A stretch of 61,815 nucleotides of DNA, the filler included, from Streblomastix strix (lineage: Eukaryota): the NCBI GenBank assembly GCA_008636045.1. It is 4 parts of 4 records of this genome, joined end to end, with 100 filler letters (N's around TTAATTAATTAA, not from the genome) between each part and the next. Parts side by side here need not be neighbours in the genome. Positions count along the whole stretch, not along the records: positions 30,988 to 46,352 come from SNRW01000996.1; 3 more parts are not named here. One strand, written 5' to 3'. Within the stretch, counting starts at the first letter, position 1. Each line of letters opens with the position of its first letter. The notes below the pieces were generated by a model. The model had not been told where the DNA came from and searched no databases. It saw only the letters and a list, made by a program, of their open reading frames with translations. Positions 6,386 through 46,352 of this stretch are shown here, piece after piece. A program made the translations under genes and the position numbers.

Positions 6386-7583
6386 ATGTTCAATGGAACC
6401 AATACTATATCTAAATATCCCCATAATTATTTGATTAAATTAACTGTGTCGGTTAATTTATCATGTACCGATACAGATAATATAGATATAATAAAATTGA
6501 AGCCATAAAACATATAGTTCATCACGCCCATAATCAAATTCAAAATGTTCATTTTGTCCCCTATTAAAATAACACTTTCAAATTTACAAAATATTTAATT
6601 TGCAAACTATGATTTATTGAACGAATATAAAACGCGCCCTTTTACAAAAAATTCATTGTTTTTAATTAATGCGAACTATTATATAGTTGTGGCTGTTGGC
6701 TCAGGTAAAACAACGCTTATATCTAAGCTGATTGTTATGTATAAGAAAATCATTGAGCCATATATTATTTGTTTCTCTAATTTTGGAGCAGATGAAACTA
6801 TGACCTTAAATTTAAATAGCAAAGGAATATAAATAGTGAATATAACATATGGCGAGGCTATAATTTTTTTGCCAGAATTTGATGAGGTAAAATACAGAAC
6901 AAAAGAAGTATATACTTATTATAAGCTAAAAGAATAAAATTATGATTACAATAGCGATTTTATTAAGCGAATGAAATAGAAAATAATAGAAGCAAATCCA
7001 ATAAAGAAAGAAGAAAAGCCTCCATTATATGCTGAAAGAATTGCCGAACTATTTTAATCTACAATAATTGGGACCATAAATAAATATTCATAACCTTTTG
7101 AAATCCTGCAGTTCAAAATTCCAGCGTTAATTTAGAACGTAAGCTATCAAAAGAAATTAAAAGTTATTGACGATAAATAAACAGCAGACATAAAATATTA
7201 AAAATTCCTATTCATAAAGATGCTTAACTATTAAATACTTTGATATAGTTTGATGATATAGGTTCCAATGCCGATATACAAAGATTTTCGTCTTCATTAT
7301 CTAAGACCATTACCCATTTAGTTAGTGATTCACGCCATAGTAAAAATATAATATTCTTTACAGATTAAAGGCCCAGTTATTTATTTAAGACTGCGCGCAT
7401 TCTATCGCACGTCATTTGTCTCGGGGTTAATCTGGGCGAGAGTGATTTAAAATACGTTTATGAGGAGAATTCAATTTAAGATTTAGACTTTGAAGAATTT
7501 TATTATTATATGGAACATTAAATAAATATGAATTTATGGTTTTAAATAAATGGCTCGGAAAATTTGAGATACTAAGAAATTGA
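6386..7583 (+). pseudogene. A32/FtsK-HerA-like genome packaging ATPase
   Basis: Walker A VAVGSGKTT (~6688-6714), Walker B LIQFDDIG (~7240-7263), arginine-finger SRH and downstream FTDQRP. Frameshifts near 7080, 7205 and 7515. Confidence 0.85.
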
Positions 7584-7764
7584 AAAGAATTATCGTCCGC
7601 TCAATTTCGAGCACACGCAATAATCGATGGATTTTCATTTATGGTCTCCTATAGTAGGTCGAGGGTTGAATTGAAAATCATAAAAAATTGAGTTCTTGCA
7701 ATATTGCAACCACCGACAAATAACTTTTATTTTTTTTATTTTTATTATTTTATCTGGATATAAA

Positions 7765-8337
7765 ATGGCATAGGAAATAAACGAATGGCAAATATTAGTG
7801 GTTGATAATGATTATGAAATATTGGTAGAAGAGCCGCACGGAATCAGAAGAAGAGATAATAAATATATTCCAAAAATTTCAATTAATAATTGCGGATATT
7901 AAACAATTTCCTTAAACTAAATTTTATATTAATATCATCGTGTTTCAGAAATATAATTTATACCAAATCCTATAAATTTTTATGAATGAGATTATATGGA
8001 TAGAAACAAATTGAACAATAGTTTAAATAATTTACGCTGAGTATTATCATCGGATAATAACAAAAATAGGTCGCACAAAGGAAATTTAATATATAATTAT
8101 TTAGATGAATTATCAGATGATGCAATTGTAGTAAATAAGTATTGAAAATACGAATTTGAATTTCTTTATTTTAATAACAATAATTTTTACACTTATAACG
8201 GATTATAATATCGCCAGCTTTATATAAATGAACATAAAAAAACTGGCTTATTATTTTTAAGTGTTAATGATATAGATAATAAATAATGCAAAATTTATCT
8301 TAATAAATTTAAACGATTATTTGATATTGCATTTTGA
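7765..8337 (+). pseudogene. HNH homing-endonuclease-like protein
   Basis: EWQILVVDNDYEI...GYQTISLN...YHRV...FIPNP...DYMDRNKLNNSLNNLR*V...NNKN; three in-frame TGA codons. Confidence 0.8.
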
Positions 8338-8437
8338 AAAGTATTATTTTTGAACCCGAATAAAAGTAAGCGAGCTGATATGGCTAAAAGTAGCTATACA
8401 TAATAATCGAGGGGGAAAAATTACGCTCTCAACTTTT

Positions 8438-8468
8438 AAGGGGCTGGTTCAAATTGAGCTGACCCCTT
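8438..8468. terminator. Imperfect GC-rich hairpin between the convergent HNH and pPolB genes
   Basis: AAGGGGCTGGTTCAA-A-TTGAGCTGACCCCTT can pair 14 of 15 positions, three by G-U; it ends 4 nt from the pPolB stop. Function inferred only. Confidence 0.3.
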
Positions 8469-8472
8469 TCAT

Positions 8473-11400
8473 TCAATCAATAATATAATCATTAGCTTTT
8501 AAGCCCAAGATGTAAGGACAACAGCTTTAATCTCGTAATACTATAGCCTTAGTGTGGATGCCAATAATGCTGTTCTTTTGTGTAGCTATTTTTGACATAA
8601 TATAATTCTTTTGGCCTAGTATAATATTTGTCGCTTTTGTTATGGTTCCACTATTAATATTATCCGCTATGTTTTATTTATTTATTTTTGTTGTCTTCTA
8701 ATTGACACCTTTTAATTTTATCTTTTCCTTTTCTCCTACTTTTATATAATAATTCTTAGGAGCTAATGCAATAATTTCGGTTCCTTCATTTTCAATAGCT
8801 AAACCAAGTATTTTCTTCTCGTCAAATAAATCCCTATCGATTGTTGGGAAGAAATATTTTGCATTATCATCATAAAATTATTTATCTTTAATTACGAAGT
8901 TAAATTATTATTAATATCCAGCGTCTGATGAGCCCCTAACCGCCCAATAAGCCTAGTCAGTATCGCCTTCCACGAAATGAAGTTTCATCATGACAAAAGC
9001 CTTATGCATAAAATTATATATGAAATTTACATAATGATATTTTGCATTATCCAATACAAAATAGGCTTCTTAAATTGGGGTCTTACATGTGCAAGTTTCA
9101 GGGTTTAATTATACCGCGTAAGCATTATCTGATAATTATTGTTCATCCATAAATGTATTTGACAAATGAGATTTTAGTGCTACCTTTTAATCCATGACTT
9201 TTATTTCTATATATTTTTCTGTGTTCATTCCATCGGAACCATATGATTAGTTCATCTTTATTTTACAAAATTATTCTAGTTCTTTATTTCCTTCTATTTT
9301 CGCTTAAATTCTCTTGCCTATAAATTCCTTGACGAATGGATTAAATCCTTCATGCTTATTAAATAAAATCAATTGCTTTACATCATCAATAATAAAATAG
9401 CAGTAATCAATCAAGAACCATAAATAGTAAGAGCTGAAGGACATGAACACGCCCATTGTAGATAATAAGTTTATTAATTTTCGCAATTATTTTTGTTCTG
9501 TTTTAATGTTGCTATTTTTCATATGATTATTCATGTAGGAGCCAATCGTATCCTCGTTAGTGGTAAATGTATAATTTCTTAAAATAGGGGGAAAATTAAT
9601 AAAATCATTGATATATTTTTCGTCGATATGTCCTTTAATTTCTGCGATAAATAATTAATCTCTGCAGTTAATTATATCCCAGATCTTAGTCTTATCATCA
9701 AATCGGCCAATGATAGAACCAGCCATATACATTTTTCCACCAGTATATTTTATAAATTTATGTGGCTCGGATGACATAACGCTTGGATATAATGAATTGA
9801 AATCAACACTGACGATATGAGAAATTATATTATTTGAAGTTTGAACATGAACTTTCTTATTTTCGTTATCATAAATAAATTATTTTATTGTGTCTTTGCC
9901 TGCTATATTTTCCCTATGCATTACATTTGATAAGCCGTCAGTTCTTCCATTGCGAATCAGTTTATAATCTTCAATATTTGTTAAATTAGTAGAGAGATAA
10001 TTCAGCGTGCAATACCTGCGAAGTTAAATAATTAATTGATTTATTTATTTTTATTTTTATTTGAACAGTATTTATTACAATATAAGCAGCACGGTTATAC
10101 ATTATCTTTTGTGTATGGTAGATTATTATTTATTCTATCTAATGTTTGCTTATTATTCACTGTAAATTTATCACCGCAAATGGAACATACTGACGATTCG
10201 AGTAATTGCTTAAAATATACGAAGTCATTAACTGATACATTATATGATGGGTCTCTATGTTTTATTTGGTCTTGGAATCTATAACTTTCTATTTTATATT
10301 TCCAATAATTAGGATATAAAATGAACTTGTAAGAGTTATCAATACAGGGGGGATAATTAGCATTTAGATCGAAGTTCTTATAAGCTAATGCGTATTTGAT
10401 AGCGTTTGCACATGCGGCCATGGACATAAAGCTAAACATTTCAATTTTATACTCCATCTTCATTTATATTAAATTGTCTATTGGTGCTATCATTATTGTT
10501 GCATCTTGTTTATTATAATACTATTAATATTCCTGACGATTTTTAAATTATTTTACATCCTTTAAATAAATTTTATATTCGTTTTCGCTCATTGATGAAT
10601 TCCTTAATGTTGAATTGAATGCTTCAATGGGGAATGGCTCACTGCTATTGAGGACATCATTAAAATTATCAGTATTAGTATATTCATATGGAAATACCCC
10701 CTTTTCGAGTAGTTTTAAACATTCTTTCGAAATCTCTTGCATTTATTTCATGGCTTCCTCTCCAAAATTTTTTGCAAAATCCTTCAAAGTCATCGGTTGA
10801 ACATAGACCATAATATCACAGAATTTCAATTTGATTTCTGAGTGCTTATGTTAAACAATGATTGATTTGGCTTATGATGAACTGCCAATATAGCTTTTAA
10901 TTTCCCAGTCTTAAGATTATAGATTTTTAAATATCAATGCAAAATCGAACTTCGTGCTATTGAATCCAATGATGAAAATTCAACGGTTCAGTCAATAGTT
11001 CTATCAATGGAGCTGTCAGGTCGGTCTCCGACCTCCGCCTCGCAGCTGGTTCCATATTAATTGTCTTCTTATATTTATTTCGCTTCTTTGAATGTTTATT
11101 TTAGCTATTAATTAATAAAATCGGTGCCAATTCACTTGTCAAAATAAATTGATTTTATACTTTATTTATTCTTAATTGTTGAGGCTATAGAAAGAGGTAC
11201 CAATTGTGAAATATGTATGCTTGATTTGCCAAAATCTTTACTGATTATTTTCTCCACTGTTTCAAAATCATAAGTGATATAGTAGCTCGTGGGTTTAAAT
11301 TCGTTTTCTCTATTATTTGCCAGTAAATATGCATAATGTTTTGTTCTGCATTATATGCGGACAAAATGGCATTTGAGCAGCGTCCGGTTTAATCTCCTTT

Positions 11401-12867
11401 ATTATCTTTCCTTCGTTAATTTTGCATTTCTTGATGTGCTTCTCGTAATCTCTTTCAAATTGAAAATGACGGGGATCGAATGCTCTAGACTTGCAGAATG
11501 GGCAAAATTTCAATCCTATTAATGATTCATTATTTGAGATATATAAGGAATGGGTTTCCATTTATTCAGACGAGGCAATTAATACGTTAAACTCGGAAAC
11601 ACTGACGGTTTCGTTTTCGGATCCGTTACTGAATTCATCTGTGGCTTCTTCGTTAAATTTATATGCCTTTGATTGATAATATATTTTTTGCTCAGTATCA
11701 TAATCATAAATATTTATATTAATTTTCTCGTCTTAAATGAACTTGTCAATCTCCCCGTCAATATCGAATTCTTTATAATTTTAAAGTCGAGTTTATAATT
11801 ATTAGGTGGATATTTTATAATATTTCATCATATGCTCCTTAGCCATATGCTCGCGTGAGTGTTCTCTGATTCTTTATAGGGGTGAATCTGGGAATTTAAA
11901 TAGATTGTATGCGTAGAACCAGCATATATTATATTTGCATCTTGTCGTTCTCAAACAGTTCTTATGGCCCTATAAATAAAAATCTATCAGTTCACCCAGG
12001 CTACTGCCCCCTACGCGAAACAGATTAGGAAGTGCAAACGTTTTAATCATCATCGAATAAATGGCAATGAACCGCTATTTTGTGCTATCCAAATTAAAGT
12101 TCTGTATCTCTATAATTTCCAATTTAACATATTCCTTGTATTCTTCTATGTCTTATTCGGTGATTATCGACTTAGGAATATGTTTTTATGTTCTGGCTTC
12201 TTGATGTAAAATATAATCGTATGACACTGATAGATGTTCCTGCTTGTCTGTGTTTTGTTATTCATAAATAACGCCAAAATTAAATGTAATTTAAAATGGT
12301 TTATGATTCTGTTTTTAAAATACCGAGTCAATAAATTTATTTATCTCTTCTAATGAATAAATCAAATTATTATAATATGTGCAGCTAAACTCTCCCTCAA
12401 TATCTTTCTAAAACTGATAGCCTTAACGTGCACTATCAGCTGTATTGATAAATTTATCCATGTCAGCGGGTTAGAAATAAAGCAAAGTATCAGAGAAATC
12501 ATTTTGAATTTCATTGACTTATTCATTGCTATATTTATTAATTTTATCGCTAATCTCTTCATTCTATATAATGACAATATAAAGCTGATGTAATACGAAA
12601 GCGTTTTTCGTCTCTTAAAGTTCTGGAGCTTAGTTAATTATTTAGTCTCATTTAAAAAATGCTTTTGGATTTCTTGCTCCTGTTCAATTCGTTTATTTTA
12701 GGCATTACTGAATTTATTTAGAGTATTAAAATTATTCCTTCCTCTCTTGGAGAAATTAAAAGTATCTAGTTTTTGATCACGTTATTATTTTAGTTAATTT
12801 CTTTTAATTTGCTTTTTTCATTTGAACCTATTAATTTGATGATTTCGCTTTTCTTTAAGTAAAACAT
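8473..12867 (-). pseudogene. polB: Protein-primed family B DNA polymerase polyprotein
   Basis: ExoI YDFETVE, ExoII IGFNSTKFD, KGVFPYE, ExoIII YYNKQD, motif A VDFNSLYPSVM, motif B KIKMNQSYG, motif C HFVEGDTD. Several frameshifts. Confidence 0.93.
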
Positions 12868-12938
12868 ATTTATTATAAATTAAAAAAATAAAAAATTTAT
12901 AAATAAATTTAGTTAGGATAAAATAAATATAAACTAAA

Positions 12939-13271
12939 TCACTTATCAAATATAAATTCCAAGTTTATTATATCAAATTCATTTTTCAATTCTGGATAAG
13001 TTTAATATAAAACGTCGATGGTTTCTTTATTTTAATATAGCTTTTATTTGTATAATTTTATTTAATTTTACGCTTCATCAATAATTTCATTAATGGGAAC
13101 ATCTACTGTTTATAATGGTTATGATTTACTAAGAAATACCCTCATTATCTATTTTGAATATTATTGAGGGTGAGTTATTTAATCCTAATATTGATTTATC
13201 TTTTTGATACAAATCGAGTATTCTATTGCTGCTGTTTAATAGTAATTGATTTTTTTATATAATTTGTCCAT
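12939..13271 (-). CDS. Viral hypothetical protein (110 aa)
   Basis: TAAATG start; MDKLYKKINYYQTAAIEYSICIKKINQY...LEFIFDK then TGA; intact under TAR=Gln. Confidence 0.55.
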
Positions 13272-13296
13272 TTATGAAAGATAAAAATAAAATAAT

Positions 13297-14758
13297 TCAT
13301 TAAAATTATATCTCGTGCAGTAAATTATTATACATGTCGCCAAATTATGTAGATATCTTACGGCCAAACTTACCATATAATGTAAATACTACTGATTTAT
13401 TCTAACGAATAAAACACTCTTAAGACATCATGTTCTAACCCCATAAAGTAGGAGCATCAACCAAGTTTTATTTGAAGCATACATTATTAAACCCATTACC
13501 TCCGACTATCTCCATCGTTATACCCTTTAATTAATTATCAACGCAAATAATTAAAATCTATGGATATTCTATAAAATTACCTATAAATGGATCAAATTTC
13601 GGTATATCAGGAATCAAACTATTGGCTTAAAATTTGGTCCTATAAAACCATGTTTCCAAATCAATTTGTTTAATTGATGATGCGAAATTAACCAATTAAT
13701 TTGCTTTATTTTCATTTATTCCATCATATAAATACAAAGCCCCAACAAGTTAAGCATAAAAATTTGGTGATAATAATATTATTTTAGCGAACCAATTAAT
13801 ATGCTCAACTGCTGACCATTCGCTAACAACTTCCGCGATGAATTACCCATAGAAACCAGTCCTTCCAACCGCTGCATAAACATCCGTCCATTCTTAGGAA
13901 GTAAAAGCAGGTAGTGAGCATATTATTCGCATGGGAAAGGTATTTATATTATTGATTATTTATTACATGGTCTATTATTAAATACCAATTGGTTAATCGT
14001 CTAATGTTGCAATTGCCCCCGCTGAACTAATATTTATCCTCTTGCCGAATAAATAACGTACCGATAATCCGTTCGGTGCTAGAGGTTCAACCGAAGTTAT
14101 AAAATTATTTGTAGTTGGACAATATATGCCGATTAAACCAATAGCTCTATAAGCGACGCCAGTACTGTAATCCATTATCCAATAATGATAAAGAAACGCA
14201 TCAATTCTTAAATTTATATAATTCACTGCAGAACTTACAATATCCCCGCCCCAGTTTGTATTTAATGAAAAATGGTTATTTACTAATTTTTATGTATGTT
14301 CATTCTAGGGGTTATTGAAGCAAATAGTCCCTCGATTTGTTGTTGTTTATTATTTGAAATATTTTTCTTATCCGTCAATAAAATTATTAAAGCTGGGAAT
14401 TTAAAGAGCAAGCAATTACGGCACATATTTATATCCTTAATTATCTTGGTCATCAACATATTAGTTATTTATAGCCGAATTTAAATTCAATTTGATAGGT
14501 GGAAGCTCTGTTAAAGCTTATAATGAAAAGGTATTATTTCCGTTTTCTTGTTAATAGTATATTTTTTCTATTCGGCGTTGAAATTATATTATGTTAAATA
14601 TCTATGCAATCACTGTTCAAAAAATAGGTTAAATTTATCGGTATATTATTTATGCTATTCACTTAAAAGGAATTATAGCCCGAGGGTATTGTTGTCTTCC
14701 ATGATACGAAGTACTCATCTGAATCAGAGCTAATGATTTATAAGCCAATGTTTGACAT
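13297..14758 (-). pseudogene. Probable minor capsid (penton, single jelly-roll) protein
   Basis: N-terminus MSNIGLQIISSDSDEYFVSWKTTIPSGYNSFQVNSINNIP and C-terminus VVFTLYGKFGRKI...MYNNLLHEIQF resemble penton termini. About 480 codons with about three frameshifts. Confidence 0.45.
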
Positions 14759-30987: not shown

Positions 30988-30988
30988 C

Positions 30989-31582
30989 TTGGGTACTGCG
31001 AGAGATCTAATGAGGAGAACTATAGGGTTGATGGTGGCTTTCTCAGCCACGAGAATGGTCGAACTTGCCAAAATTACCAGGAATGACATCTTATTCCGAG
31101 ATGAAATAATGATTATCAAAACCGTCGTGAAGAAGTATAAGAAACCCAAGCAGTTTGAAATTACATTCAACAAAAGATAGATTCCTTGCTGTCCGGTCGA
31201 TGCGATGAAATCGTGGTTATCTACAGAAGAATGTACAAAGAAACTAGATGAAGGAATATGGAGGTATTATGAAAGAAAGAAGAAATTGGGAGGAATTGGG
31301 TGCAGCAGAGAGCTGAGGCTTCTCCTCGATGAAATCGGTATAGATAAAGAATATGCAGGTTCTACAGTTCGCCATGCGAAGATGACGAAACTACGAGATG
31401 AAGGTGCAACATAGGAAGAGGTAAATGAGGCTACTAGACTTACCACAGGATCGAACGCATGTGACACGTTCTATTATAAACCAATTGCTAGGGACATCGG
31501 TGCACTTATTTTGAAAGACTTTGAGGTTTAAAATATTGTTAATTAATCTATGATTAATATTAATTTTATATATGCTATATGA
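30989..31582 (+). mobile_element. Tyrosine recombinase C-terminal domain of a DIRS-type retroelement (5'-truncated by contig end)
   Basis: FSATRMVEL (catalytic R), CCPVDAMKSW, STVRHA (xxxR), distal FYYKP (catalytic Y); purine-rich composition like the RT element at 41306. Confidence 0.85.
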
Positions 31583-31806
31583 ATAAATGTATATGAGAGA
31601 GAGGAGAGTAAAGAGAAAGGGTGAATGATAGAAAAATAATAATTAAATTTTATTAAATTAAGTAAATATTAATGAATTACATTAAATTACATTAAATTAC
31701 ATTGAATTATTTAATAAAAACATTAAATTAAATTAAATAAAACTAAATTAAATTAGATAGAATTATACTAGATTAAGTTAAATTATAATTTAAATTGTAA
31801 ACATAC

Positions 31807-33474
31807 ATCCTATTTTTAAATGAATTTGATAGTTAATAAAAATAATAAATTAACAATAATAAATGATGTAAAAATTATTAAATATTGCCATAAATTCATT
31901 TCTATTCTTATTATTTAAGCATACTGTCTGAAATTTCAGTTAGGTATAGATGTAGAAGCAAAAATTAATTTAAAAATAATATAAATGCATGAGTTTACAT
32001 TTCTGTTTCATACTATCTGATTTTTTATAGAATCAAAATATATTATATAATATTTTAAAAAAATAAAAAATTGATAAAATAGAAATAAAATTAACTTTAT
32101 TTAAGTAAAATATACCTCCTATGAAAAGATAAAAATTATCATTATATAAATGAATTTGATGTGATTATATTATAAAAATATTAAGATAGATTTAGTAATA
32201 TTTATAATAAAAGTTAATTTTTTTAATATAAAATAATAAATTTATAATATTATCACACGAGCTATTCCATTATATTAGTTAAATTATTAATGTGTTTATA
32301 TTAAGCAATCAATGATAATAGTATAGAAAATATATATAATATTATTAAATATAAAACTGGTTAATATTAAGTTGTATTGTAAAATAAATGTTTATTTTAT
32401 ATATTTAAAAATTAATTGCATACTTCCTTATTTTCAATGAAATTCAAAAATGACATTATAAAAAAAATTTATTAAAAAAATTATTAATTGATAAAAATAA
32501 GATAGAAATTGAATTTAAATTAATAAATTATTTTTAAAATAATATAAATTTTAATAAAAATATAGTTAATACCTCCTAAAATAGTTATGATATATAATTT
32601 TTTAAAAAATTTATAATTAGTAGAGTAAATTTCAATTTTTAACAAATATTTTTCATTATATATACCAGCTAACATTAAATCAGAGTAAAAGATTCAATGA
32701 GCATTTTATGAAAAAATTAAACATATATAATTAAAGTAAAATATTCATATTTTATTTTAATTATGAAATAAATAATAAGAAAATAATTTTTTCTTTCATT
32801 ATATTATAAAGTATTATACAAACGTGCTGATAATAGAATTAATCAGTAACAATATTATTAACATTGGAGATTAATTTTCAAGTTAAATATACAACAAAAA
32901 TAAATAAATAATATAAATATATAAAATATTAAATAATTAAGAAATAATATGTAAAACACAAATATTAATATTTGATTCATACTTACTGGTTTATATTTAA
33001 AGAGAAATTTTTAAAAAATAAAAAAAATTATAATCATAATTAATATATAAACAAATAATATAAATATGATTATAAAAATTAAATAACATTTAAAATATAA
33101 ACTAAAAAAATTAAAAATTAAATCATACTTACTAATACAGAGAATTCAAAAATTAATTAAAATTAATAAAATTAATCAATATGGATTCATATTTTTAACA
33201 TATAGTTAAATAATATTTACTATTTCCTTTCAAAAATTTAAAATAATATGTTTATACTAACTAATTTATTAAATAAAAGAAATATAATAAAAGAAATATA
33301 ATAAAAAAATAATAAATTTATTAGTGCTATATTTATTTTTATATATTTATCATACTCCCTGGAATTTCAAACGAATATCAATGATAAATCAATAATAATA
33401 ATAATAATAATTATATAAATATTACAAAATTAGTTTTTATTAATTTTTATTATTAATTGTTTATTGCATACGAT
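31807..33474 (-). other. Array of 14 tandem 3-nt micro-exons
   Basis: In transcript order: ATC 33472-4, GGA 33356-8, TTA 33258-60, TAA 33129-31, TAA 32983-5, CAC 32824-6, CTG 32666-8, GAG 32573-5, GAA 32424-6, CTC 32259-61, GAG 32116-8, ATA 32014-6, ACA 31925-7, GAT 31807-9. Acceptors are YAG in 13 of 14; donors are GTAT in 12 of 14. Confidence 0.85.
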
Positions 33475-33913
33475 CTAAAAGGTTAATTTATGGATATATA
33501 ACATATTTATTGTAAAAAAATATAAAATTAATATTTAATATATTAAAATATAAAAAATAAATACGTCCTTCAGGTTCATCAGAGTTAGTTCCAAATTCTT
33601 TAGAAGTTTCACATATTCCAAAGCCTATTACAATTATAAAAATATATTATTAACCGTGAAAATATAATTATTTATTTAAATCATTTTATTTTTAATTCAT
33701 TAATTATATTATCATACAGAATTATTCTCCTTCATGTCCTTTGAACAAAACTTCAAATAATGTTATACCATCGTTGACAGCAGGATCAGCAGTGATTGTT
33801 CTCTTACGATCATTTTCTAATGAACAAATATATTCAATTTCTACACGATTCGTATCCCCTAATGGAACGTTAACAGATGGAACAATTGCTGGAACACGGA
33901 AAAGATTTGCCAT
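31807..33913 (-). CDS. SPRY/B30.2-like domain gene (3'-incomplete): two normal exons followed by 14 three-nucleotide micro-exons
   Basis: Exon 1 33718-33913 MANLFRVPAIVP...RTITADPAVNDGITLFEVLFKGHEGEQF; exon 2 33565-33624 CFGICETSKEFGTNSDEPEG (SPRY-like G-x3-FEV...FGI pattern); then 14 AG|NNN|GT units. Confidence 0.75.
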
Positions 33914-34738
33914 CTAATTATATATAAAATTATAAAAAACAAATAAAAATTAATAAAATCGTTAAAAATCGTTAAAATTCGTTAAAAAAATGAAAAAATA
34001 ACAAATAATATTAGAATAATCTACTATATGATATATAAAATTGTATCATAAGATATATTATATAAATTAAATATAGTTATATTTCTCAAAAATCAACTAC
34101 GAAACAAAAAATTTTAAAATTATTTTTTGAGAGCGAATATTTTGTAAAATATAAAGAATGATTTATATAATTATCTATACAAAATATCTCTTAAAAATAA
34201 TAATTATTCTTAGATATTTAAAATTATGAATCTACGCCAAAAAATCGATTTTTATAAATTATTTGAAAAATTGACGGGGAAGAAGTTATATTACTATTTT
34301 TATTTCAAAAAGGTTTAATTTAACTATTTCATTATTAAATAAAATAACGAAAATAGTAGTGAACAAGCAGGTAATTAAAAAAGCGTTCTGAAACTATACA
34401 AAGCTTTATATAGTTTTTTATTTATATTTTTTATTTTATTTTGGAATACTCACAAATATTATTACAAAATTATTCTCATATAAGCCTTTACGGGCAAACG
34501 AACATTACGGCCGCTGTTTTCTAATATCCAAAGTGCAAATATTACCTCTATTTCAATATTTTATCATAAATTAATATTTAAAACAGTTTTAATGAATTTT
34601 ATTATAATTTACACATTTATTTCAAGACGAAATATGAGATTGATTTTTTCATTTTATTTGCCATTTTTCTTTCTTATTACTATTTAAATATTATTATAGT
34701 ATTATTATTCGGATTTACAACTTTGTTGAAGTTAGATT

Positions 34739-37706
34739 ATGAGCAAGAAAAGACAAAAATGACTCATAACGGCTAAGGTATGCTAGTTTATTTTTCAATT
34801 TTTTATATTACAACTTATTTTCTTACAACGCACTATTTAGAAAGATGAAAAATCACCAGATTATGAGGATGAAATTGTAGATGAAGAAGAATGTATACCA
34901 ATATATTTAATTATTAACTATTTCATTCTGATTATTTTACAGAAAATATAGTTAATGATGAAGCAACTATAGAAAAAGATAAAAAAAATTGCTCCTATTA
35001 CATCTCGAAATGATGCTAAAGAAGAAATCGATAATAATTTGAAATAAGAATAAAGTTTAATTCCAATTACAGATGCTGAAATGGATAAAGATCAAATTAA
35101 CAGAAAAGAATTTGAAGATTGAATTCTAATAAATAAGTTGAATAAGGAAATATCAAGAAAAGGAAAAAATGAATAAAATATTGAGTATTAACTGGCTCAT
35201 AAATAAGTTGAATAAGGAAATAAGATAGAAAATGTAGAAACGCTTGAATATATACGAACTAAATCCCGGTATAATTATCATAATTTCAGATTTGATAAGA
35301 AAATATTTGAAAGAATTACAGAGATTAATTTGAGAGAAGATTTGACAGATTAATAAAAAGAATAAACAAAAGAAGATATCAGAAAGCAGAATAATTGAGA
35401 AATGGAGGTGAATATTAAGATCAGTACAGTATACCCAGTTTAAAGAATGATCTGGAAGAAGATGCTAATAATAAAGGAAAATAATAAAAGAAAGAAAAAT
35501 CAGAAACGAATAAAAAAGATTTTGATTGCTCATTTGATAAAGTTCAGATTAATCGAGGAATGAAAGATGATAAAAAAGAAGACGATATTAATGATTCTTA
35601 ATAAGAAATATCATATGGAGAATTGAATTAAGAAGAAGAAATTGAATTGTAAAGATTTGAATAGAAAGAAAAAGATTAATTATTGAAAGATAAGAAATTA
35701 TCAGGAAAATAAAAAGCTGATAAAGTATCAGGAAGAGAATAAAGAATCAGGAAGAGAATAAAGGAATAAAGAAGAATTAGGAATATTTTGAAGATATATA
35801 AAAGAAACGAATGGAATTATCAATGTTTCAGTAAAGAAATGATTTTTTAGATTTACTTGAAGAAAACCAAGTTGTAACTGTTGTTAGTGACATTTGATCT
35901 AAAAATACAAAACAACTTCCACAGTATTGTGTTGAAGCGAACTATCATATGAACAACACTAAACGTATAGCATGCGCATAACCCAGAAGAGTAGCAGCAA
36001 TGTCTGTTGCATCTCATGTTGCAGAAGAACAAGGTGTATCTTTGGGTGGTGAATTTGGATATACGATTCTATTTGAAGACTGTACAAGTGAGAGAACAAT
36101 CATTCAATATATGACAGATAGAATGTTACTTAGAGCTTTCTTAGCTGAACCAGATTTGAGTTGTTATTCTGTGATCATGTTTGATGAAGCACATGAACGA
36201 ACAATTGATACTGATATCTTACTTGGAATGCTGAAAGATCTTTGTAGATTGAGAAAGAGTGATTTGAGATTGATTGTTTCATCAGCAGCGATGAATTCCC
36301 AGAAACTTTCATAATCCTTTGACAATGCTCCAATATTGAATGTATCAGATCGAATGTATGATGTTGAGATTCTTTATTTGAAACAACCATGTTTTGACTT
36401 TGTTGGAGAAACTATTGAGACAATATTGAATATTCATTAAGAGAATCTAGCAGATGGAGATATCTTAGTTATTCTTTCTGGATAAGAAGATATTGAAGAT
36501 GTTAATTTTAGATTAGAAAGATCTATGCAGAAGAAGTTGAATGAATAAGCAGCTATTAAAGATTGATAGAAAAGTGCGATGTAAAGACTGAATAAAGAAT
36601 AAAGAATATAAATTGGGGATAATTTGAATAAGAATAATATTTTGGAGATGATGATATATCCAATATACTCAGAATTAGCATCAGAATTATAATCTAAGAT
36701 ATTTTAGTGGATAACATTTGGAGCTCGACAAGTTTTAGTTGTTATGAACAATGCTGAGACATCAGATACAATTGAATAGATCAAATATACAATTGACTAT
36801 AGATAATATAAAGTTAAGAAATATCAACCAAAATAAGGATTTGAAGCATTAGTTGTTGAACGAGTATCAAAATCGAGTGCATTATTAAGGAAGGGAAGAA
36901 CATAAACAGGGAAATGTTACAGATTATATACTGAACACTAAAATAATAAAACATATTAATAAAATATATCTGAGATCTAAAGAGCAACTTTATCACATAT
37001 TATTCAGCTTCTGAAGGTTATCAAATAATATTTATTTATTTATCTTAATCTAATATCTATTTTATTTTATTAAATTATTTCAGTCACTAGAATTAGACAA
37101 TCTCATTATTTTTGATTTTATTGATCCACCTGAAACTGAATCTATTATGCGAACAGTTGAATAACAATTTTCATTGGGAACACTAAACTCTCGAGGTGAA
37201 TTAATTAAACCTGATCAAAGAATAGCTGAATTTCCAGTTGATCCATAATCGGCTAAATCTATTCTTACAGGAATAAATTTTGGAGCTACAAAAGAGATAC
37301 TTTCAATTTCATATGTGAAATCAATAGATGGAGAAATATTTAATCGATTAAGAAGATCAGGAAAAGAGAAAGATAATATTTATATTAATAAAAATTGTGA
37401 TGAAACTGGATAGAATAAAAAGAATATTGAAAACAGTCTCATAAGATGATATCATTTATGAGATCACTTCATGAATTCTCTTCTCCATTTGGTGATCATA
37501 TTGGAAAATTGAGAAAGTACTAATTATATGAAGAGAATGAATATGATGAAAGTTGGGCTCGAACTAATTTCTTATAACCAAAAACAATGAGACGAGCTCA
37601 AAATATCAGAGAGTAACTTACAAGGTTATGTGTGAATGCTGGAGTTATTATGAAGAGTAATCAGAATAATGATGTGCTTAAATACATGGACAATGTAAGA
37701 AAGTAA
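34739..37706 (+). pseudogene. DEAH-box spliceosomal RNA helicase (Prp2/DHX16-like) pseudogene; ends approximate
   Basis: [34 protein letters not shown] and DILVILSGQEDI are present, but Walker A is destroyed (VSDI*SKNTKQLPQY), SAT is SAA, and there are multiple TGAs and frameshifts. Confidence 0.85.
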
Positions 37707-37847
37707 AATAAATATGACAACATTATAAATATTTGAATTTAAAATGCCTTTTTATTTTAAATATTTAATTAATAATGTGAGATAATTATGTTATATATTA
37801 AGTGAATGAATTTAAAATATATATTAAGTCTGTATTTTCATAATTTA

Positions 37848-40456
37848 TCAAGCATATTAAATATTCGTCACTCTGGTAGGATCATAGATCACGTATTCTG
37901 GGTAATTGAGGTTCGTATTCATATATTTAGCTGGGAAGAAGACACTATCAAATCCTTATTTCTTGAGTTCTTCTCCAGTTAATTACGGTTCCATCTACTT
38001 CATGATCTTGCAACTTCCAACATCAACTTGGCATTCAAGAATAACTCCTTTTTGATGAGCTTTCCTTTCAGTATCCTCTTTAGTGAGTGCGAAATATATC
38101 CCACCTCCTGCAATGCCACGATTCCCTGGTCTGAATCCAGTCTGTATGATTGATCTTGCAGCTTAAGCTGATGTTTAATGAAACCCTGTAATATTATTAA
38201 TTGGCTTCTATTATTATTCTAATTATTATCTTCTTTATTACTCTTAATAAATTTTTTAATCTTTTTCATGTATAATTCTGTTTTTATAATCTTAATTTTA
38301 TTTTTCTTATTCTTATTACATTTCTATCTATTATTATAATTATTATATTTATTATTATTCTTATTAAATTTTCGTTTCTTAAGCTTATGAATTTCTTCTT
38401 TGTTGTTATATATAAATATTCACTTATTACTCATTTCTTTTTCTTTGCTATTCTTTTTCTTCTTCGATTTATCTTCTTTGTTCTTCTAATGCTTTTCTTC
38501 TTTATTCTTCTTCTTATTTTCTTCTCTATTCTTCTAATTCATTTTTTCTTCTTTACTCAATTTCGTTTTTTTCAATTAATTACATTGTCATTTCAATATT
38601 ATGAAGAAGAAGATCGTATTATTGTTGACAGTTTGCAATGTGACTGTTGATTATATGATTTCTTAATTAAGATGAATCAATTAATATTTAACAATAAGGG
38701 CATAAGATTAATCTTCCTTATTTAATTGCATTTCCACCAAATTGAGAAATTGTCTACTGCTTTATTGTTTATGCTATAGCAAACATATCTTTATACAACT
38801 TTTCCTCTGATGGATGCCACATATGTATGTGATTTGAAATATTTGATGCAAATATCTCATTCTTGCAAAATATACAAAGAACTTTCCCCTATTTATACAG
38901 TCTAGATTCTAATTCATTTAATCTATTTTATTCTTCTTGTTCTAATTTTAATGCAGTTTATCTATTCTCTTCTTCAATTTATCGTTTATATTCTTTATCA
39001 CGAATTATTCTTTATTCTTATTAAAGAATTTTTACTTGGTCTTCTAATGATCTTCTTATTTATTCTTGCTCTTATGATTTTCTTCTTTATCCTTCTTCTT
39101 CTATAGCTTTTCTTCTTTATTCTTATTAAAGCATTTTTACTTGGTCTTCTAATGATTTTCTTATTTATTATTCTTCTTATGTTTTTCTTCTTTATTCTTA
39201 TTAAAGAATTTTTACTTGGTCTTCTAATGATCTTCTTATTTATTCTTGTTCTTATGATTTTCTTATTTATTCTTCTTCCAATGCTTTTCTTTCTAATTCT
39301 TCTTCTAATGCTTTTCTTTCTAATTCTTCTTCTAATGCTTTTCTTCTTAATTCTTCTTCTAATGCTTTTCTTCTTTATTCTTCTTCTAATGCTTTTCTTC
39401 TTTATTCTTCTTCCAATGCTTTTCTTCTTTATTCTTCTTCTAATGCTTTTCTTCTTAATTCTTCTTCTAATGCTTTTCTTCTTAATTCTTCTTCTAATGC
39501 TTTTCTTCTTTATTCTTCTTCTAATGCTTTTCTTTCTAATTCTTCTTCTAATGCTTTTCTTCTTAATTCTTCTTCTAATGCTTTTCTTCTTTATTCTTCT
39601 TCTAATGCTTTTCTTCTTTATTCTTCTTCTAATGCTTTTCTTCTTTATTCTTCTTCTAATGCTTTTCTTCTTTCTTATTCTTCCAATGATTTTCTTTATT
39701 ATTCTTCTTCTTCATCTTTTCTTCTTTATTCTTCTTCTAATGATTTTCTTTATTATTCTTCTTCATCTTTTCTTTTCATTTCTTCTTCTAATGATTTTCT
39801 TTTTTGTTCTTCTTCTTATTATTTTATTTTTTATTCTTCTTCTAACGTTTTTCTTTATTATTCTTCTTCATCTTTTCTTCTTTATTCTTTTTCTAATGCT
39901 TTTCTTATTCATTCTTCTTCTAATGATTTTCTTCTTTCTTATTCTTCTAATGATTTTCTTTATTGTTCTTCTTCTTATGCTTTTCTTCTTTGTTCTAATT
40001 TATCATCGTTATCAAAATTTTGAGTGTTATATTCAATAATATGCTTAGAAAAATCATGTGCATTATGTTTGGCTGTTTGAAATGCAATATGTACATCCTT
40101 TTTCAGAGCTTTTATATTCTGAATAAAATAGAAATAAAAAAGAAAATGTATTTAAATATATAAAAATATAAGAAAATGAAATTAACCTTACTAGTGAAAT
40201 ATTTTACAATGAAATCTTTTGCGTTTTTAGCAACTTACCTGAAAGAATTCTGTTTTGTATCTGAGGTTTAACCTTCCTATTTAAACTAATCAATTTGATT
40301 TTACTCTGCTCTAAACTATGGCTATGTTTGTTGATCTTCACTTAATCTATCAGATACTTAGAAGTTATTCATCTTGAATTGTAAATCAATATGCTCTTAG
40401 GGGTGCGTTTCCGAAGAGCGAAATGCTCGTGCAAAATTACTCAAAGATTAACTCAT
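37848..40456 (-). CDS. Coiled-coil repeat + two C2H2 zinc fingers + C-terminal Gig2/PARP-like ADP-ribosyltransferase domain
   Basis: One intron ~40119-40187; CIFCKNE...HIHMWH and CPYCQIL...HIINSH; C-terminal GFHQTS...GGGIYFA...GFDSV...PEYVIYD giving an H-Y-E triad. Confidence 0.8.
39255..39990 (-). repeat. 27-bp coding tandem repeat (RRKALEEE[Q/L])n
   Basis: Plus-strand unit TTCTTCTTTATTCTTCTTCTAATGCTT repeated near-perfectly ~39270-39670 and degenerately on both sides. Confidence 0.9.
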
Positions 40457-41305
40457 GGCTGAATAGATTTAAATAATAATAAAAAAATTATTAAATATAC
40501 TAGAAAATAATGAATATAAGAAGAAAATTATAAATATAATGAATAATTTAATATGTATAGCTTGAAATTCTTGAATAAAAAATCTGAATTTATAAATTAT
40601 ATTTTGCGGTAACGGAATTTGTAAAAATTAGTACATTTATAATTAATATTATTACAATGACATTTATCAAAATAACTAAAACTTAAAAAAAAAATTTATT
40701 CTTGCAGTCACTTTGCTTTTCTAGGTCACATAATCCTGAACTTTTATTACAAACAGACAAGTACTTTTTGACCTTTTCAGACACTTTATTTTTACATATC
40801 AAATAAAATCTTAGTTGATTTAATTAATAATGTGTTTGAAAGAATTTGAAATGAAAATATTCAAGAATAAAAAACAGCAAAAATAGAATTTTGATTAAAA
40901 CTGTGTAAGATTCCTGTTTATTCTAATTAATTGTTGTACTTATTCTTAATTAGTGTGAAAGAAACAAATTAAATAGAATTTTTGAAAAATGTATTATTTA
41001 AGTCCACATAAATTTTTAATTAAAATTTCATCATCATTTGATCTCAATTGTCGTATAAATTCTGTAATTGCACCAAATAAGCCAATCTATATAAATATAA
41101 TTATATATGTTTACTTAAACATTAAAATCATTTATTCTCTTTTTAATACTAACATCTTCATCTTTTTTATTAATAATCAGGTTATTGAATTGTAAAATCC
41201 AATAACCCTACATTTCATTTCGGATTATGTCACCCACCTTGCATAAGGCGAGCTGACCTCTTTATTGCACATAGGCTCACTCAATGGGGCCCAGATCGCT
41301 CAAAA

Positions 41306-43985
41306 ATGACTGAGTCCCAAGGTTCCGACACGCAAATAAATACGCAAACCGAACTATTAGCTAAAAAAGGTATCGAATACGCATAAAATATGATGGCGAT
41401 GACGCGGGAGCGAGTGAAGCTGCTGTTCGACGCGGAAATACAAGTTATGCTTGCTGAGAGCCCATTTCCCACATCAACATTTACCATACATGAGGAGGAC
41501 TACGAAGCAAAGATGAGGTATCTATGCAGGCGTATATTAGACAACGATATGAAGGCGGCGAGGCGGGAGGACCCGGAAGATTTGTTCGTGAAAAAAGAGA
41601 AAAGGAGCCACGAAACGGAAGATATAAAGCCGCTGCAATCGTAGAAGAGTGCGCGAGGTGAGAATGGAGAGCATGTGTAAAAGACGGTGATCGATTTAGA
41701 GCAGGGGGACGGTGACGAAGGCTGGGATGAGCCCTTCCAACGATTTCCAGATAGGCTGAACGAACCGCGTAAATAGTAAGGTGGAAGGTCAGGAAGGTTG
41801 AATAACAGCTAATAAAGCTAAAGAACACATGACAGGACGCGCTAGAGCCCGGGAAAGCAGATGGCGGAAATTTTGAGCAAGAAAATGGCAGTGCAAGCAG
41901 CATCGTTCAAGCCGCTGGGCTATTCCGATAGAGCATTTATATTTAGAGACCTGGGCAAATTTAGATATGTGGGATCAGATTGGAAGGTGGTAACGCCAAA
42001 GGGCAGGACAAGGCTAGAATAAGGTGATTAATACGCAGATGCGATGACTGGGCTCATAGACGCATAATAGGCTTTGTTGGTTGCAATGGAGAGTGGAATA
42101 GGTGGACATAGTAATATAGAGCAGATAGCGCATGCATATGCAATGCTGTGTGTGGGTGCAAACGCGGTAGCGCAGTTGAGAGAACTGGCAAATGCGCCAA
42201 GAGAGCTGAGGGGAGTAGTGGGAGGTAGTATTCTGCCTGCAGATATATTCTCGGATGATAGTATTGAGAACATCAAAAGGTATCTGGAGCTGAAGAGGGT
42301 GGACTAGATGCATTTTCCATATCAATAAGGGCTGTTTTAATACCCACAATCTCAGATCCAGCAACCGTAGTGGCTGCAGCACTTGTACCAGCCGTTCCAA
42401 CAGTTCTAACCGTTCCAGCCGTTTGGAATGTAGCAAACACCGTATACTGCGAATCAGTTTGGCTATGGAAGAGGAGCAGCAGCAGGAAGAGGCTTCCAAT
42501 CAAGGGGACGCGGGGGAAGAGGAAGGGGAGCTTTTGGCTCCAATTTTATACCATTAGGAGGGTAGTGAGTGAGTGTGGAGTTGAGTGTATAGAGTGGGAG
42601 TAGTGAGGGGATGAATGATAGTGGGGAGTAGGGAGTTTTAAAGAGTGAGAGAAAGAGTGTTGAGGATGAGGAGTCGTTGGGGTGAGGGTTTTAACAGTAC
42701 AATAAACCGTACCCCAACACAAATATGATTGGAGCCCGTTTATTACTTTATAGCAGAGTATACGAAAAAATAAGCATGGACAAAACAATTAAGATTGGAT
42801 GCTGCGCGAGATGGAAAAGCCAAGAGAGCAGGGTAATATTAGCATAGTAGAGAAGAGTAATCTATTTTAGTGGGAACGAGGAATAGGCAGAGTAAATGGA
42901 TCAATTAATAAAGGAAGAATTAGAATAAGGAATAATTAAAGTGATGAATTAATAGGAAATTCTATTGTGGAACAGAACATTTGTAATAAAGAAACCGGGA
43001 GGAGGATTGAGGAGAATAATGGATTGTCGGCCGTTGAATACATAGCTAAAATCCCAACATTTTACAATGAACGATCTGAATAAGGTACTGGAAATGTGGA
43101 AATAAAACGATTGGGCATGCCTGATGGACATCAAATCAGCGTTTAACCATGTAGCAGTAACGGGCGAACTGGAGAAATACCTTGCATTCACACACAGAGG
43201 AATTCATTATACACAAGTGGGAATGCCATTTGGGATCTCGATAGCACCGAGGACGTTCGCAAAGACAATACAGATAGTAATAGATAGGGTGAGGAATAAG
43301 AGCCCAGTTCGTATAATAAATTACGCAGACGACATTCTGTTTCTAATGAAGGATCGGGAATAACTAGAGAAGGAAATATAATGAATAGTAGAGGAGTTTA
43401 AGAAATATGGATGGGTAATTAACGAGAAGAAGAGCAGGCTGAAACCGGAGTAACAGTTTGTATTCCTGGGATGGATGTTCAATTCAATAACAATGAAGAT
43501 TTAATTGACTAGCGAGAAAAGGAAGGAATTGAAAGCACTAGTTTAAAAAACAGATAAAGCTAATAATGGAAGAAAGAATACAAAAGATCAAAAGCGTGGC
43601 AAGTTTGGTTGGTAAGCTTAGGTTTTCCACTCCATAATTCAAACGAGGAGGACTGCATCTATAGCAAATAAACAAATAAATCAGTAAAGCAGCGAGAGTA
43701 TTGGGATGGACAAGCGAGATGATAGTATCAAGGAGATGCCTGACAGAACTATATTGGTGGGTGACATAATTGGAGAACAATAAACCAAGGATGATAGATA
43801 AGAGACAGAGCGAGATAATAATTTAGACAGATGCATCAATAATTGGATGGGGAGCGAGTGTGATTAAGAATAACACAAGGATTAGGAGGATATACGGATA
43901 ATGGGAAGCGAACATGGAGAATTCCAATCTGAGAGAAATACTAGCAATATGTAGATCAATACAATCCCTTAAGGAATATATGGAG
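41306..43985 (+). mobile_element. DIRS-type retrotransposon fragment: gag-like ORF, reverse transcriptase, RNase H (degraded, 3'-truncated)
   Basis: GC/purine-rich island; RT motifs RRIMDCRPLN, MDIKSAFNHV, GMPFGISIAPRTF, YADD (43322-43333); RNase H QTDAS..GWG and SNLREILA; in-frame TGAs. Confidence 0.9.
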
Positions 43986-44759
43986 TTGGCTTTTTTAATT
44001 GAGGAAAAACGGCAAATTTCACGAACTAGAAGATTTGATAATATTTTTAAAGTACATATTATTAGTGTAGAAACAAAATAATGTTCATATGTTTGAAGAA
44101 GTTCTCTTCATGGTTTTATGCAAAAAATCGAATTTTTCTAATTAAAATTAATTCTGCATATGTTCATTAAAATTGCTTGTATTTGTTTTAAATAAATTAG
44201 AATTATTAAATGTTATTTCTTTTTTTTATATTTATATAGTTTCTCATTTGCATACTCCACAAATTTTGCTATTTAAAAATATTATTGGTTTAGAGAGTTT
44301 CAATTAACAAATATTCATTTAAAATATGACACCATAAAATAGTTTAATTATTTCATTAAAATTCTTTATTATATTAATAAAAAAGGTTAAATTTAGCCTA
44401 ATTTTCCAGAATATACATTTTTTGTAATAAAACACTTTTCCTAAGCTAAAATTAGATTTATTTTGTCATTAAATTTAATAATATCAACTAATATTTATAA
44501 TTATGACATAATTATTTACAAATTTTGCAATATTTCAAAACATAACTAAAATTTGATAAATCGATTAAAATGAAATTCTTCATATTCTGAAACAATTGTA
44601 CTATTATTTTTCATCGAACTAATTAAATTAATATTTTCTTACTGATTTTTTATTTTTTTATAGTTCATACAACAAAAATATTACTACTTGTTATAAATTA
44701 ACAAAATTTTTTATTATTTTATTTTATTTTTATTATATTTAATATATTATACAAAATTC

Positions 44760-45276
44760 AATTGAAAATAAAGACTATTTTATGAACTTGAAGATGCATT
44801 ACTTCAAGTGATCAAAAAATTAAATAAATATTTTTTCGATGGTGTATGTTTATCAGTTTTTATTCTAAATTTTATTTTATTTTATTTCTTTTCGTTAAAG
44901 GAAGCTCAATTACGTGGTTATTCACGACTTCTTTAAACATTAATTTGTTTTCTTCGATATGAATGCATATTAATGCAAGAAACTTATAAGTATGCCATTT
45001 TAATCATTTTCTTTATTAGAAATTAATAATATTTTATGATCATAACTTATTATTATTTTTATTTAGTTATTATTCAGCTTACTCGAAGATGAATTAAGAG
45101 ATATATACTCTTAATTCTGAACTCGACGATATAAACAATGAATTAAGATATTATGAATAGAGAGTTGCAGATAGAAAAGCTGCAATTAAAGCTGCAAAGG
45201 AATAAACCGAGACTTAGAATTTTGAACTGGATCGAAGAATCAACTTACCAACACTTTATGATAAAAAAGGTCGCTG
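44760..45276 (+). CDS. Multi-exon hypothetical coiled-coil protein (start not resolved)
   Basis: Exons ELEDALLQVIKKLNKYFFDG / EAQLRGYSRLLQTLICFLRYE / YSKMNQEIYTLNSELDDINNEL...KKGR then TGA, separated by GTATG...AG introns. Confidence 0.45.
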
Positions 45277-45472
45277 ATTGACAGCTAAGAAAAAGAAATT
45301 AATTGCCATAAATTATTTTTATTTTATTTTAAGTTACAATTTTGTATGTGAATAAATTGTGAATGTCTATTAAAAATTGAATGTCTTTAACAACTCTCGA
45401 ATGTAATATAAATTAAAAAAAAATGAATTAACAATCCACCTTTATACTAATATAGTATAAACCTCTTCATTC

Positions 45473-45795
45473 AATAGTTACATCTATCAACCTCTTCCAT
45501 TTCGTTCTATACACCACCTGCTGCATCACCTCCTGTTGATTCAAGTGGAGGAAGATCTGCTGCAATATCTCAAATGTCATCAATTGAAAGTACTAGTTTA
45601 ATCATTCGATATATTCTAGCTGAGAATGATGCTGAATCTTCAAGTGAGAAATCTGATATGAGAAGAGCTGTTTCATATTACATCATATTTAAGTCCTTTA
45701 ATGTAGCATCGGCTGGATTAACACACTTTTTACATAATTCTGCAATGATAGCATTATCCGGATTAGTTTACATTGTTTTCTTTGATTGCATGTAT
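45473..45795 (-). pseudogene. hsp90: Cytosolic Hsp90 C-terminal fragment, degraded
   Basis: YMQSKKTMQTNPDN...KDL...YETALLISDFSLED...RIYRMIKL...DLPPLE...MEEVD; internal TGA; no upstream part recognised. Confidence 0.88.
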
Positions 45796-46352
45796 TAGAA
45801 TAAAGATGTTTGAAAAAAAATGAGTACAAATAATAATAATGGATAATATATCAATATTTAAAAATAATAATATAAAAATTTTAAGAATTGATGCAATAGA
45901 TGGTCTGGAATTTTTCATTTTATTTTTAATAATTTTTAAGATAGCCAAGTAAAATATAAATTTAGTAAAGAATTACATAAAGATTTAAAGTAATGAAAAA
46001 TTAAATTAAATTTGATTATATTAAAAAATATAAATGAGTGAATCGAGCAGGATGTTTGTTTTATTGAAATAAAAACTAAACATTTCGTTTGCTTTATGCG
46101 CTTCACAATTTACAGTATTTAAGTGATAATTAGAATAAAGAGATATAAAAAGATAAAATTAATGTATAAATTTTGTATTATTTATATTAATTAAGAAGTA
46201 GAACTTTCTGAATTTCCATGAGATGTTTCTCCATAACGCTCTATAGGAATTTTTTATTATTTTAAAATTAAATGTATCATGTTGCCTTAAATGTATATTT
46301 ATATGTCATATTTCTGGTTAACGTCGCATCTAAAGCCATTTTGAAAAAAATA

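What the first reader, a model, noticed from the sequence alone, without database searches (positions are those of the whole stretch)
31807..33913. SPRY-like gene with 14 consecutive 3-nt micro-exons: candidate splicing-based diversity generator
Seen: after two normal exons, 1.7 kb of extremely AT-rich sequence is punctuated every 86-162 nt by the minus-strand pattern AG|NNN|GT, 14 times, always with exactly 3 nt between acceptor and donor (ATC, GGA, TTA, TAA, TAA, CAC, CTG, GAG, GAA, CTC, GAG, ATA, ACA, GAT). Spacers match intron 1 of the gene (93 nt) in size and splice signals, and are not sequence repeats. Known: SPRY/B30.2 domains bind ligands through variable loops (TRIM5, pyrin), and Schistosoma micro-exon genes and Dscam diversify proteins by splicing. 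Inference: every unit preserves frame, so skipping could give up to 2^14 = 16,384 loop variants after ...NSDEPEG. That would be a codon-by-codon receptor diversifier in a protist. I know of no description of this, but cannot search the literature.
Basis: partly seen in the sequence, partly recalled or inferred. Interest (0 to 1): 0.96.

Follow-up and report, generated by a model that had tools for sequence, protein, structure and literature searches.

The report
Fourteen one-codon exons spliced in series
A gene of a termite-gut protist has at least fourteen consecutive exons only three bases long, and a cDNA-like contig shows the first ten joined in order with none skipped, so the structure is real; occasional skipping would likely vary one segment of its predicted SPRY binding domain, as reported for truffle immune receptors, but no skipped form was seen here.

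Summary
The array is real: 14 AG|NNN|GT units on the minus strand (33474-31807) against 0.88 in shuffles (largest 6 of 5000). The contig belongs to the oxymonad Streblomastix strix; the public gene model misses the array. A 782-nt cDNA-like contig splices exon 1 to exon 2 and continues with 30 letters identical to micro-exons 1-10 in genomic order. So the units are exons, and the main transcript includes them all. Corrections: the exons are in phase 1, each straddling two codons; all skip subsets give 5,519 products, not 16,384; about 450 transcript bases lie beyond the contig. Exons 1-2 are the front of a SPRY-like domain, shown through paralogues. The micro-exon peptide does not align with those paralogues. 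Free combinatorial skipping is unlikely; minority skipping is untested. The kind is known: truffle NACHT-ankyrin receptors are reported to be diversified by alternative splicing of codon-sized exons. I found no report for a protist or a SPRY gene in ten searches. A second nine-exon array turned up in an unrelated metagenome contig. Verdict: new variant of a known kind.

The parts
34379..34389 (-). likely 5' untranslated first exon (11 nt); the window reads TT, not GT, at its 3' edge
   Evidence: the 5' loose end of the X3 contig matches this place; junction not explained
33718..33913 (-). coding exon 1 (196 nt, ATG start, one TAA read as Gln), front of a SPRY-like domain
33625..33717 (-). intron 1, 93 nt, GT-AG, phase 1
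   Evidence: skipped in the X3 contig (table 5)
33565..33624 (-). coding exon 2 (60 nt), ends in phase 1
33472..33474 (-). micro-exon 1
   Evidence: sequence; in the cDNA-like contig
33356..33358 (-). micro-exon 2
33258..33260 (-). micro-exon 3
33129..33131 (-). micro-exon 4
32983..32985 (-). micro-exon 5
32824..32826 (-). micro-exon 6
32666..32668 (-). micro-exon 7
32573..32575 (-). micro-exon 8
32424..32426 (-). micro-exon 9
32259..32261 (-). micro-exon 10
32116..32118 (-). micro-exon 11 (inclusion inferred)
   Evidence: splice signals only; beyond the 30 letters shown
32014..32016 (-). micro-exon 12 (inclusion inferred)
   Evidence: splice signals only
31925..31927 (-). micro-exon 13 (inclusion inferred); the public model reads through here into the intron
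31807..31809 (-). micro-exon 14 (inclusion inferred), followed by a GTATG donor
30988..31806 (-). start of the next intron, running off the contig end; no downstream SPRY exon found in the window
30989..31543 (+). tyrosine-recombinase reading frame (Pfam PF00589, E 2e-5, under the curated cut-off), likely the end of a mobile element lying antisense in that intron

Best explanation
This is a Streblomastix strix gene in which a run of at least 14 three-base exons, each between ordinary GT-AG introns, is spliced in series (the first ten are seen joined in order in a cDNA-like contig) into the middle of a predicted SPRY-like domain, and the all-included form is likely the main product, with skipping likely giving a minority of shortened variants. 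Shown: the array, the exon 1-2 junction, inclusion of units 1-10, phase 1, homology of exons 1-2 to SPRY-fold paralogues. Inferred: units 11-14 are included too; each short AT-rich intron is recognised on its own (intron definition, from general knowledge, since a 3-nt exon cannot be recognised across); the uniform length of 3 is kept because a missed exon leaves the frame intact; single skips remove one residue (9 of 13) or remove one and create a new one (4 of 13), altering one segment of a likely ligand-binding domain, as reported for Tuber nank receptors.
For: 14 units against 0.88 by chance. The X3 contig skips intron 1 and continues with 30 of 30 letters equal to units 1-10. The middle base of the triplets, codon position 3 in phase 1, is G/C in 2 of 14, against 14 of 28 for the other two (Fisher p 0.04); codon position 3 is 16% G/C in exons 1-2 and 18% in 8 long reading frames of the window. 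Donors fit the A, U, G at +3 to +5 described for Streblomastix (PMC1501061, passages). The array holds no exon of another small size, which a frame constraint explains and random intron gain does not. The joined segment adds no alignment score against the two full-length paralogues, as expected of a fast-changing or newly built segment. Precedent for skipping of codon-sized exons in Tuber.
Against: No skipped form was seen; only one contig, of one run not on record as RNA, covers exon 2. Freedom from stop codons under skipping is no sign of selection: 3889 of 6930 ordinary 15-codon windows have it too. The 3' half of the protein was not seen. No Pfam SPRY hit on this protein or on 9 paralogues. 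Whether the segment is a surface loop could not be read from the model (pLDDT under 50 at paralogue residues 173-232). Earlier unchecked notes on similar arrays report only all-in splicing.
Confidence: 0.52

Rival explanations
1. Purely constitutive array: all micro-exons are always included, skipping is only noise, and the structure is a by-product of local intron gain or of repeated duplication of an exon-plus-intron unit, with no diversifying role.
For: The only transcript contig is all-in for units 1-10. No signature of selection for skip safety. Five earlier unchecked notes describe similar arrays, four of them with RNA support for serial inclusion. A 7-mer is shared by 4 of 14 introns against 0.17 expected (picked as the top word, so not a clean test), a faint hint of duplication.
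Against: It does not by itself explain why all 14 exons are exactly 3 nt unless they arose by unit duplication, and the introns are not detectably copies (adjacent pairs mean z 0.12). The published Tuber case is reported as extensively alternatively spliced.
Confidence: 0.31
2. Full combinatorial diversifier: exons are skipped freely, no isoform dominates, and cells carry thousands of variants.
For: All exons are symmetric and no subset makes a stop. SPRY-like host gene. Tuber precedent.
Against: One unbroken all-in contig at depth 26; with independent skipping the chance of seeing that path twice is 0.0003 at inclusion 0.5, 0.011 at 0.6 and 0.17 at 0.7 (the two-copy threshold is recalled, and amplification would weaken the sum). 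Distinct products number 5,519 at most.
Confidence: 0.12
3. The transcript comes from another allele or copy that lacks these introns, and the array is an unspliced relic or an assembly artefact.
For: The contig differs from the window at one base (33780) and at the donor of the 5' untranslated exon; it is from another sample than the best DNA holder.
Against: 255 of 256 exon letters are identical; the array keeps the triplets in exact order, with 15 of 15 acceptors and 16 of 16 donors intact; DNA run X1 holds 0.88 of the words of the stretch, though it may be the window's own source.
Confidence: 0.04
4. Mutually exclusive choice of one unit, as in Dscam.
For: An array of equal-sized cassettes.
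Against: Ten units are joined in one contig.
Confidence: 0.01

Closest known systems
Tuber melanosporum nank (NACHT-ankyrin) NLR genes with codon-sized micro-exons (Iotti et al. 2012, PMID 22289772; not held, seen only through passages of PMC4986451, PMC13449251 and PMC10197012)
   Same: Runs of many 3-nt exons in a gene for a likely recognition protein of an expanded family.
   Different: Ascomycete fungus against a metamonad protist; NACHT-ankyrin against SPRY-like; extensive alternative splicing reported there, only the all-in form seen here; family-wide there, shown for one gene here.
Schistosoma micro-exon genes (MEGs; review PMC8293314, passages)
   Same: Many short symmetric exons that can be dropped without breaking the frame.
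   Different: MEGs are mainly micro-exons of up to 36 nt, carry a signal peptide and have no homologues outside schistosomes according to the review; here a uniform 3-nt run sits inside a folded domain of a widespread fold, and the start aligns with the domain front rather than a leader.
Isolated plant micro-exons of 1-15 nt (PMC8831610, passages)
   Same: Mostly included, missed by annotation, giving wrong protein models.
   Different: Single exons or adjacent pairs in the passages read, not runs of 14.
SPRY/B30.2 domains; Streblomastix kinase-coiled coil-SPRY-like family (e.g. KAA6372275.1, KAA6398004.1)
   Same: Exons 1-2 are 46% and 44% identical to the domain front of these two proteins.
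   Different: This gene starts directly at the domain; the micro-exon segment does not align with the paralogues' continuation, which their public models give as ordinary coding sequence.

Membership tests
SPRY/B30.2 domain | Pfam PF00622 match | tested here: not met
   No SPRY family at E 1-5 for the window protein, its public model or 9 paralogues
SPRY/B30.2 domain | SPRY beta-sandwich fold | tested here: met
   For paralogue P0010 only: Atlas model aligns to SPRY proteins at TM 0.67-0.74 and the feature search gives SPRY or Neuralized clusters at 0.94-0.96; Foldseek's top 9 PDB rows are SPRY proteins or a complex holding one, best E 5e-4, from a low-confidence model
SPRY/B30.2 domain | Homology of this gene to the SPRY-fold paralogues | tested here: met
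   phmmer E 1e-5 to 5e-4 in 1.8 billion proteins for three paralogues; tblastn of P0010 on the window 46% identity, E 1e-12
SPRY/B30.2 domain | Whole domain present in this gene | not testable with these tools
   About 450 transcript bases beyond unit 14 were not shown and are not in the window; the length would fit the roughly 100 residues left in the paralogues
Tuber nank-type codon-sized micro-exon genes | Many consecutive 3-nt exons that are spliced | tested here: met
Tuber nank-type codon-sized micro-exon genes | Extensive alternative splicing of those exons | tested here: inconclusive
   One all-in contig; contigs drop rare variants
Tuber nank-type codon-sized micro-exon genes | NACHT plus ankyrin architecture | tested here: not met
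   No such family in exons 1-2; the transcript contig of 782 nt is too short for one
Tuber nank-type codon-sized micro-exon genes | Architecture shared across an expanded family | not testable with these tools
   No genome held; 4 of 9 paralogue models stop or derail where the array starts, 2 of them marked partial
Schistosoma MEG | Coding region mainly of symmetric exons up to 36 nt | tested here: inconclusive
   14 of 16 coding exons seen, but 42 of 298 coding bases seen; 3' part unknown
Schistosoma MEG | No homologues outside the genus; secreted with a signal peptide | tested here: not met
   Widespread SPRY fold in paralogues; the N-terminus aligns with the domain front from about residue 10; no signal-peptide predictor was run
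Dscam-type mutually exclusive cassette | One cassette per transcript | tested here: not met
   Ten units in one contig

The most novel reading that the evidence does not exclude
Streblomastix, a single-celled protist living among gut bacteria, has independently evolved the codon-sized-exon device of truffle NLRs and uses it across a family of SPRY and kinase-SPRY proteins: regulated skipping of single triplets rewrites a ligand-binding segment residue by residue, giving a splicing-based receptor repertoire in a protist. The paralogue models that stop where the array starts would be further members, and arrays such as L049 would mark a recurrent class of genes that annotation misses.
Probability: 0.2. 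Interest if true: 0.9.

Novelty: new variant of a known kind. Interest (0 to 1): 0.72.

Why it matters
A spliceosome that joins ten or more 3-nt exons in a row without loss cannot be using exon definition, so the gene is a natural test substrate for how short introns are recognised and in what order they are removed. It extends codon-sized exon arrays from a truffle to a distant eukaryotic supergroup and to another type of binding domain, which suggests convergence. It also shows an annotation blind spot: the public model (KAA6398258.1) ends in a false exon, and a simple spaced-motif scan finds such arrays. If skipping proves regulated, it is a residue-level diversifier of a recognition domain in a single cell.

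Tried and rejected
No whole genome was held, so no genome-wide scan. No RNA holder was listed among the 4 runs; X3 is of unknown kind and is read as cDNA from its content. X2 (share 0.09) gave only short chance pieces on exons 1-2. Word-based protein searches with the window protein found nothing. No relative in metagenome contigs: 344 pattern matches, 0 confirmed. No sequence match to solved structures. No Rfam match in 30990-34600. P0003 is a bacterial-type Calx-beta repeat protein and was dropped as a chance hit. A visual alignment of the micro-exon peptide to the paralogues' next strand was rejected: no added score, and all 5000 permutations scored as high or higher. Skip safety as a sign of selection was rejected. 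No second array in the rest of the window. The record behind L049 could not be searched. Papers not held: Iotti 2012, DeMarco 2010, the S. strix genome paper.

Full report
Setting. The window is four contigs joined by spacers. Long reading frames appear only with TAA and TAG read as Gln. The contig that holds the finding spans 30988-46352 (15,365 nt). A public protein from a contig of that length, KAA6398258.1 of Streblomastix strix, is identical to exons 1-2 and then ends in 12 residues that run through unit 13 into its intron (and the sequence). S. strix is an oxymonad that reads TAA and TAG as Gln and has 46-229 nt AT-rich introns with A, U, G at donor positions +3 to +5 (PMC1501061, passages).

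Observation. Fourteen AG|NNN|GT units lie on the minus strand from 33474 to 31807. Shuffles give 0.88 on average and at most 6 of 5000. The spacers are 86-162 nt and carry canonical donors and acceptors. They are not clear copies of each other: 5 of 105 pairs exceed z 3, adjacent pairs average z 0.12. No other such chain lies in the window.

The units are exons. Of 4 runs listed, none is on record as RNA. Run X3, of unknown kind, has one 782-nt contig of depth 26 that covers exon 1, skips the 93-nt intron at GT-AG ends, covers exon 2 and then leaves the genome. The 30 letters shown of that loose end equal, 30 of 30, micro-exons 1-10 joined in genomic order. Its other end carries letters that I recall as a template-switch oligo, then 11 letters matching 34389-34379. 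I therefore read it as cDNA. Units 11-14 lie beyond the letters shown; their inclusion is inferred. The contig has 492 letters beyond exon 2, so about 450 lie past unit 14. They are not in the window: the next intron runs into a tyrosine-recombinase frame on the other strand and the contig ends. Fourteen is a minimum.

Reading frame. Exon 1 is 196 nt and exon 2 is 60 nt, so the array is entered in phase 1 and each triplet supplies positions 2 and 3 of one codon and position 1 of the next. The middle bases are G/C in 2 of 14, like third codon positions in exons 1-2 (16%) and in 8 long frames of the window (18%). The all-in reading adds 14 residues without a stop. All 16,384 subsets are stop-free and give 5,519 distinct products; of the 13 single skips tested, 9 delete a residue and 4 also create a new one. 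Stop-freedom is no sign of selection, as 56% of ordinary windows share it.

The protein. Pfam finds no SPRY match. A full HMMER scan found 5 proteins: the exon-1 product itself, three S. strix proteins and one chance hit. A profile search found 9 S. strix proteins, 6 with a kinase domain. Two of the 9 have a complete C-terminal domain; for one of them, P0010, the Atlas and Foldseek both point to the SPRY fold, the latter from a low-confidence model. Exons 1-2 match its front at 46% identity. The micro-exon segment adds no alignment score against either full-length paralogue, so it is either much diverged or newly built, and I could not place it on the fold. Four of the 9 paralogue models stop or derail within one residue of where the array begins; two are marked partial, so this is only a lead.

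How much skipping. Only one X3 contig covers exon 2, and it is all-in for ten units. With independent skipping and depth 26, an inclusion rate of 0.5 or 0.6 per exon is nearly excluded, 0.7 is marginal and 0.8 or more fits (rough, with a recalled assembly threshold). Minority isoforms would be invisible in contigs. The uniform 3-nt length still needs a cause: either missed exons occur and must keep the frame, or the array grew by duplication of one exon-plus-intron unit. I favour the first with a dominant all-in form (0.52) over a purely constitutive array (0.31) and free combinatorial skipping (0.12).

Elsewhere. By my cut-offs 100 are repeats; of the other 7, only L049 is a real array: nine 3-nt units with strong donors and 45-118 nt spacers, against 0.1 in shuffles (largest 3 of 3000; three of the nine were selected by the pattern). 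Its organism and gene are unknown and no RNA was checked. Earlier unchecked notes of this scan list similar arrays in fungi, Trichoplax and unidentified eukaryotes; they are leads and show that the structure recurs.

Literature. Ten searches found no micro-exon report for oxymonads or SPRY genes. 'Codon-sized' exons appeared in 3 listings, and the passages I read in two of them refer to Tuber melanosporum nank NLRs, diversified by alternative splicing of tens of codon-sized exons (PMC4986451, PMC13449251, passages; also PMC10197012). The primary paper was not held, so I do not know its phases or skipping rates. Schistosoma MEGs were read from a review (PMC8293314, passages), plant micro-exons from PMC8831610 (passages). 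Term look-ups in PMC10703272, PMC6759080, PMC3778014 and PMC5658179 showed nothing on micro-exons. Subscription papers and supplements were not seen and may bear on the novelty claim.

Verdict. A real, transcript-supported run of at least 14 phase-1 three-base exons inside a SPRY-like gene of a metamonad. It works like the Tuber nank arrays in structure but is not a member of that family; diversification is plausible and untested. New variant of a known kind; interest 0.72.

Noticed in passing
L049:304-934 (+): Second array of nine 3-nt exons with GTAAGT, GTATGT, GTGAGT-type donors and unique 45-118 nt introns in a metagenome contig of another eukaryote, fungus-like by its splice sites; phase 1 contains stops, phases 0 and 2 are open; host gene not identified.
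   Followed up: partly
window 34379-34389 and 33914-34378 (-): The cDNA-like contig joins an 11-nt leader directly to the ATG across 465 nt, but the window has TT rather than GT at that donor: another allele, an assembly error at a T run, or a non-canonical intron.
   Followed up: partly
window 33780: One base differs between the X3 contig and the window and changes an amino acid in exon 1.
   Followed up: no
window 30989-31543 (+): Tyrosine-recombinase frame inside the intron after unit 14; a reading frame that looks by eye like reverse transcriptase lies at about 42686-44100 (+) on the same contig, together suggesting DIRS-like elements (label recalled, not tested).
   Followed up: partly
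proteins P0005, P0006, P0008, P0009: Four S. strix kinase-SPRY-like models end or derail at the boundary where this gene's array starts; they may hide further arrays.
   Followed up: partly
window 6101-14616: Frames that look by eye like a packaging ATPase, a protein-primed DNA polymerase and a capsid protein on the first contig, suggesting a Polinton-like element; not tested.
   Followed up: no
L004, L016, L039 and many others of L001-L107: A 19-nt satellite-like repeat family mimics the micro-exon pattern; any scan for such arrays must mask tandem repeats.
   Followed up: partly
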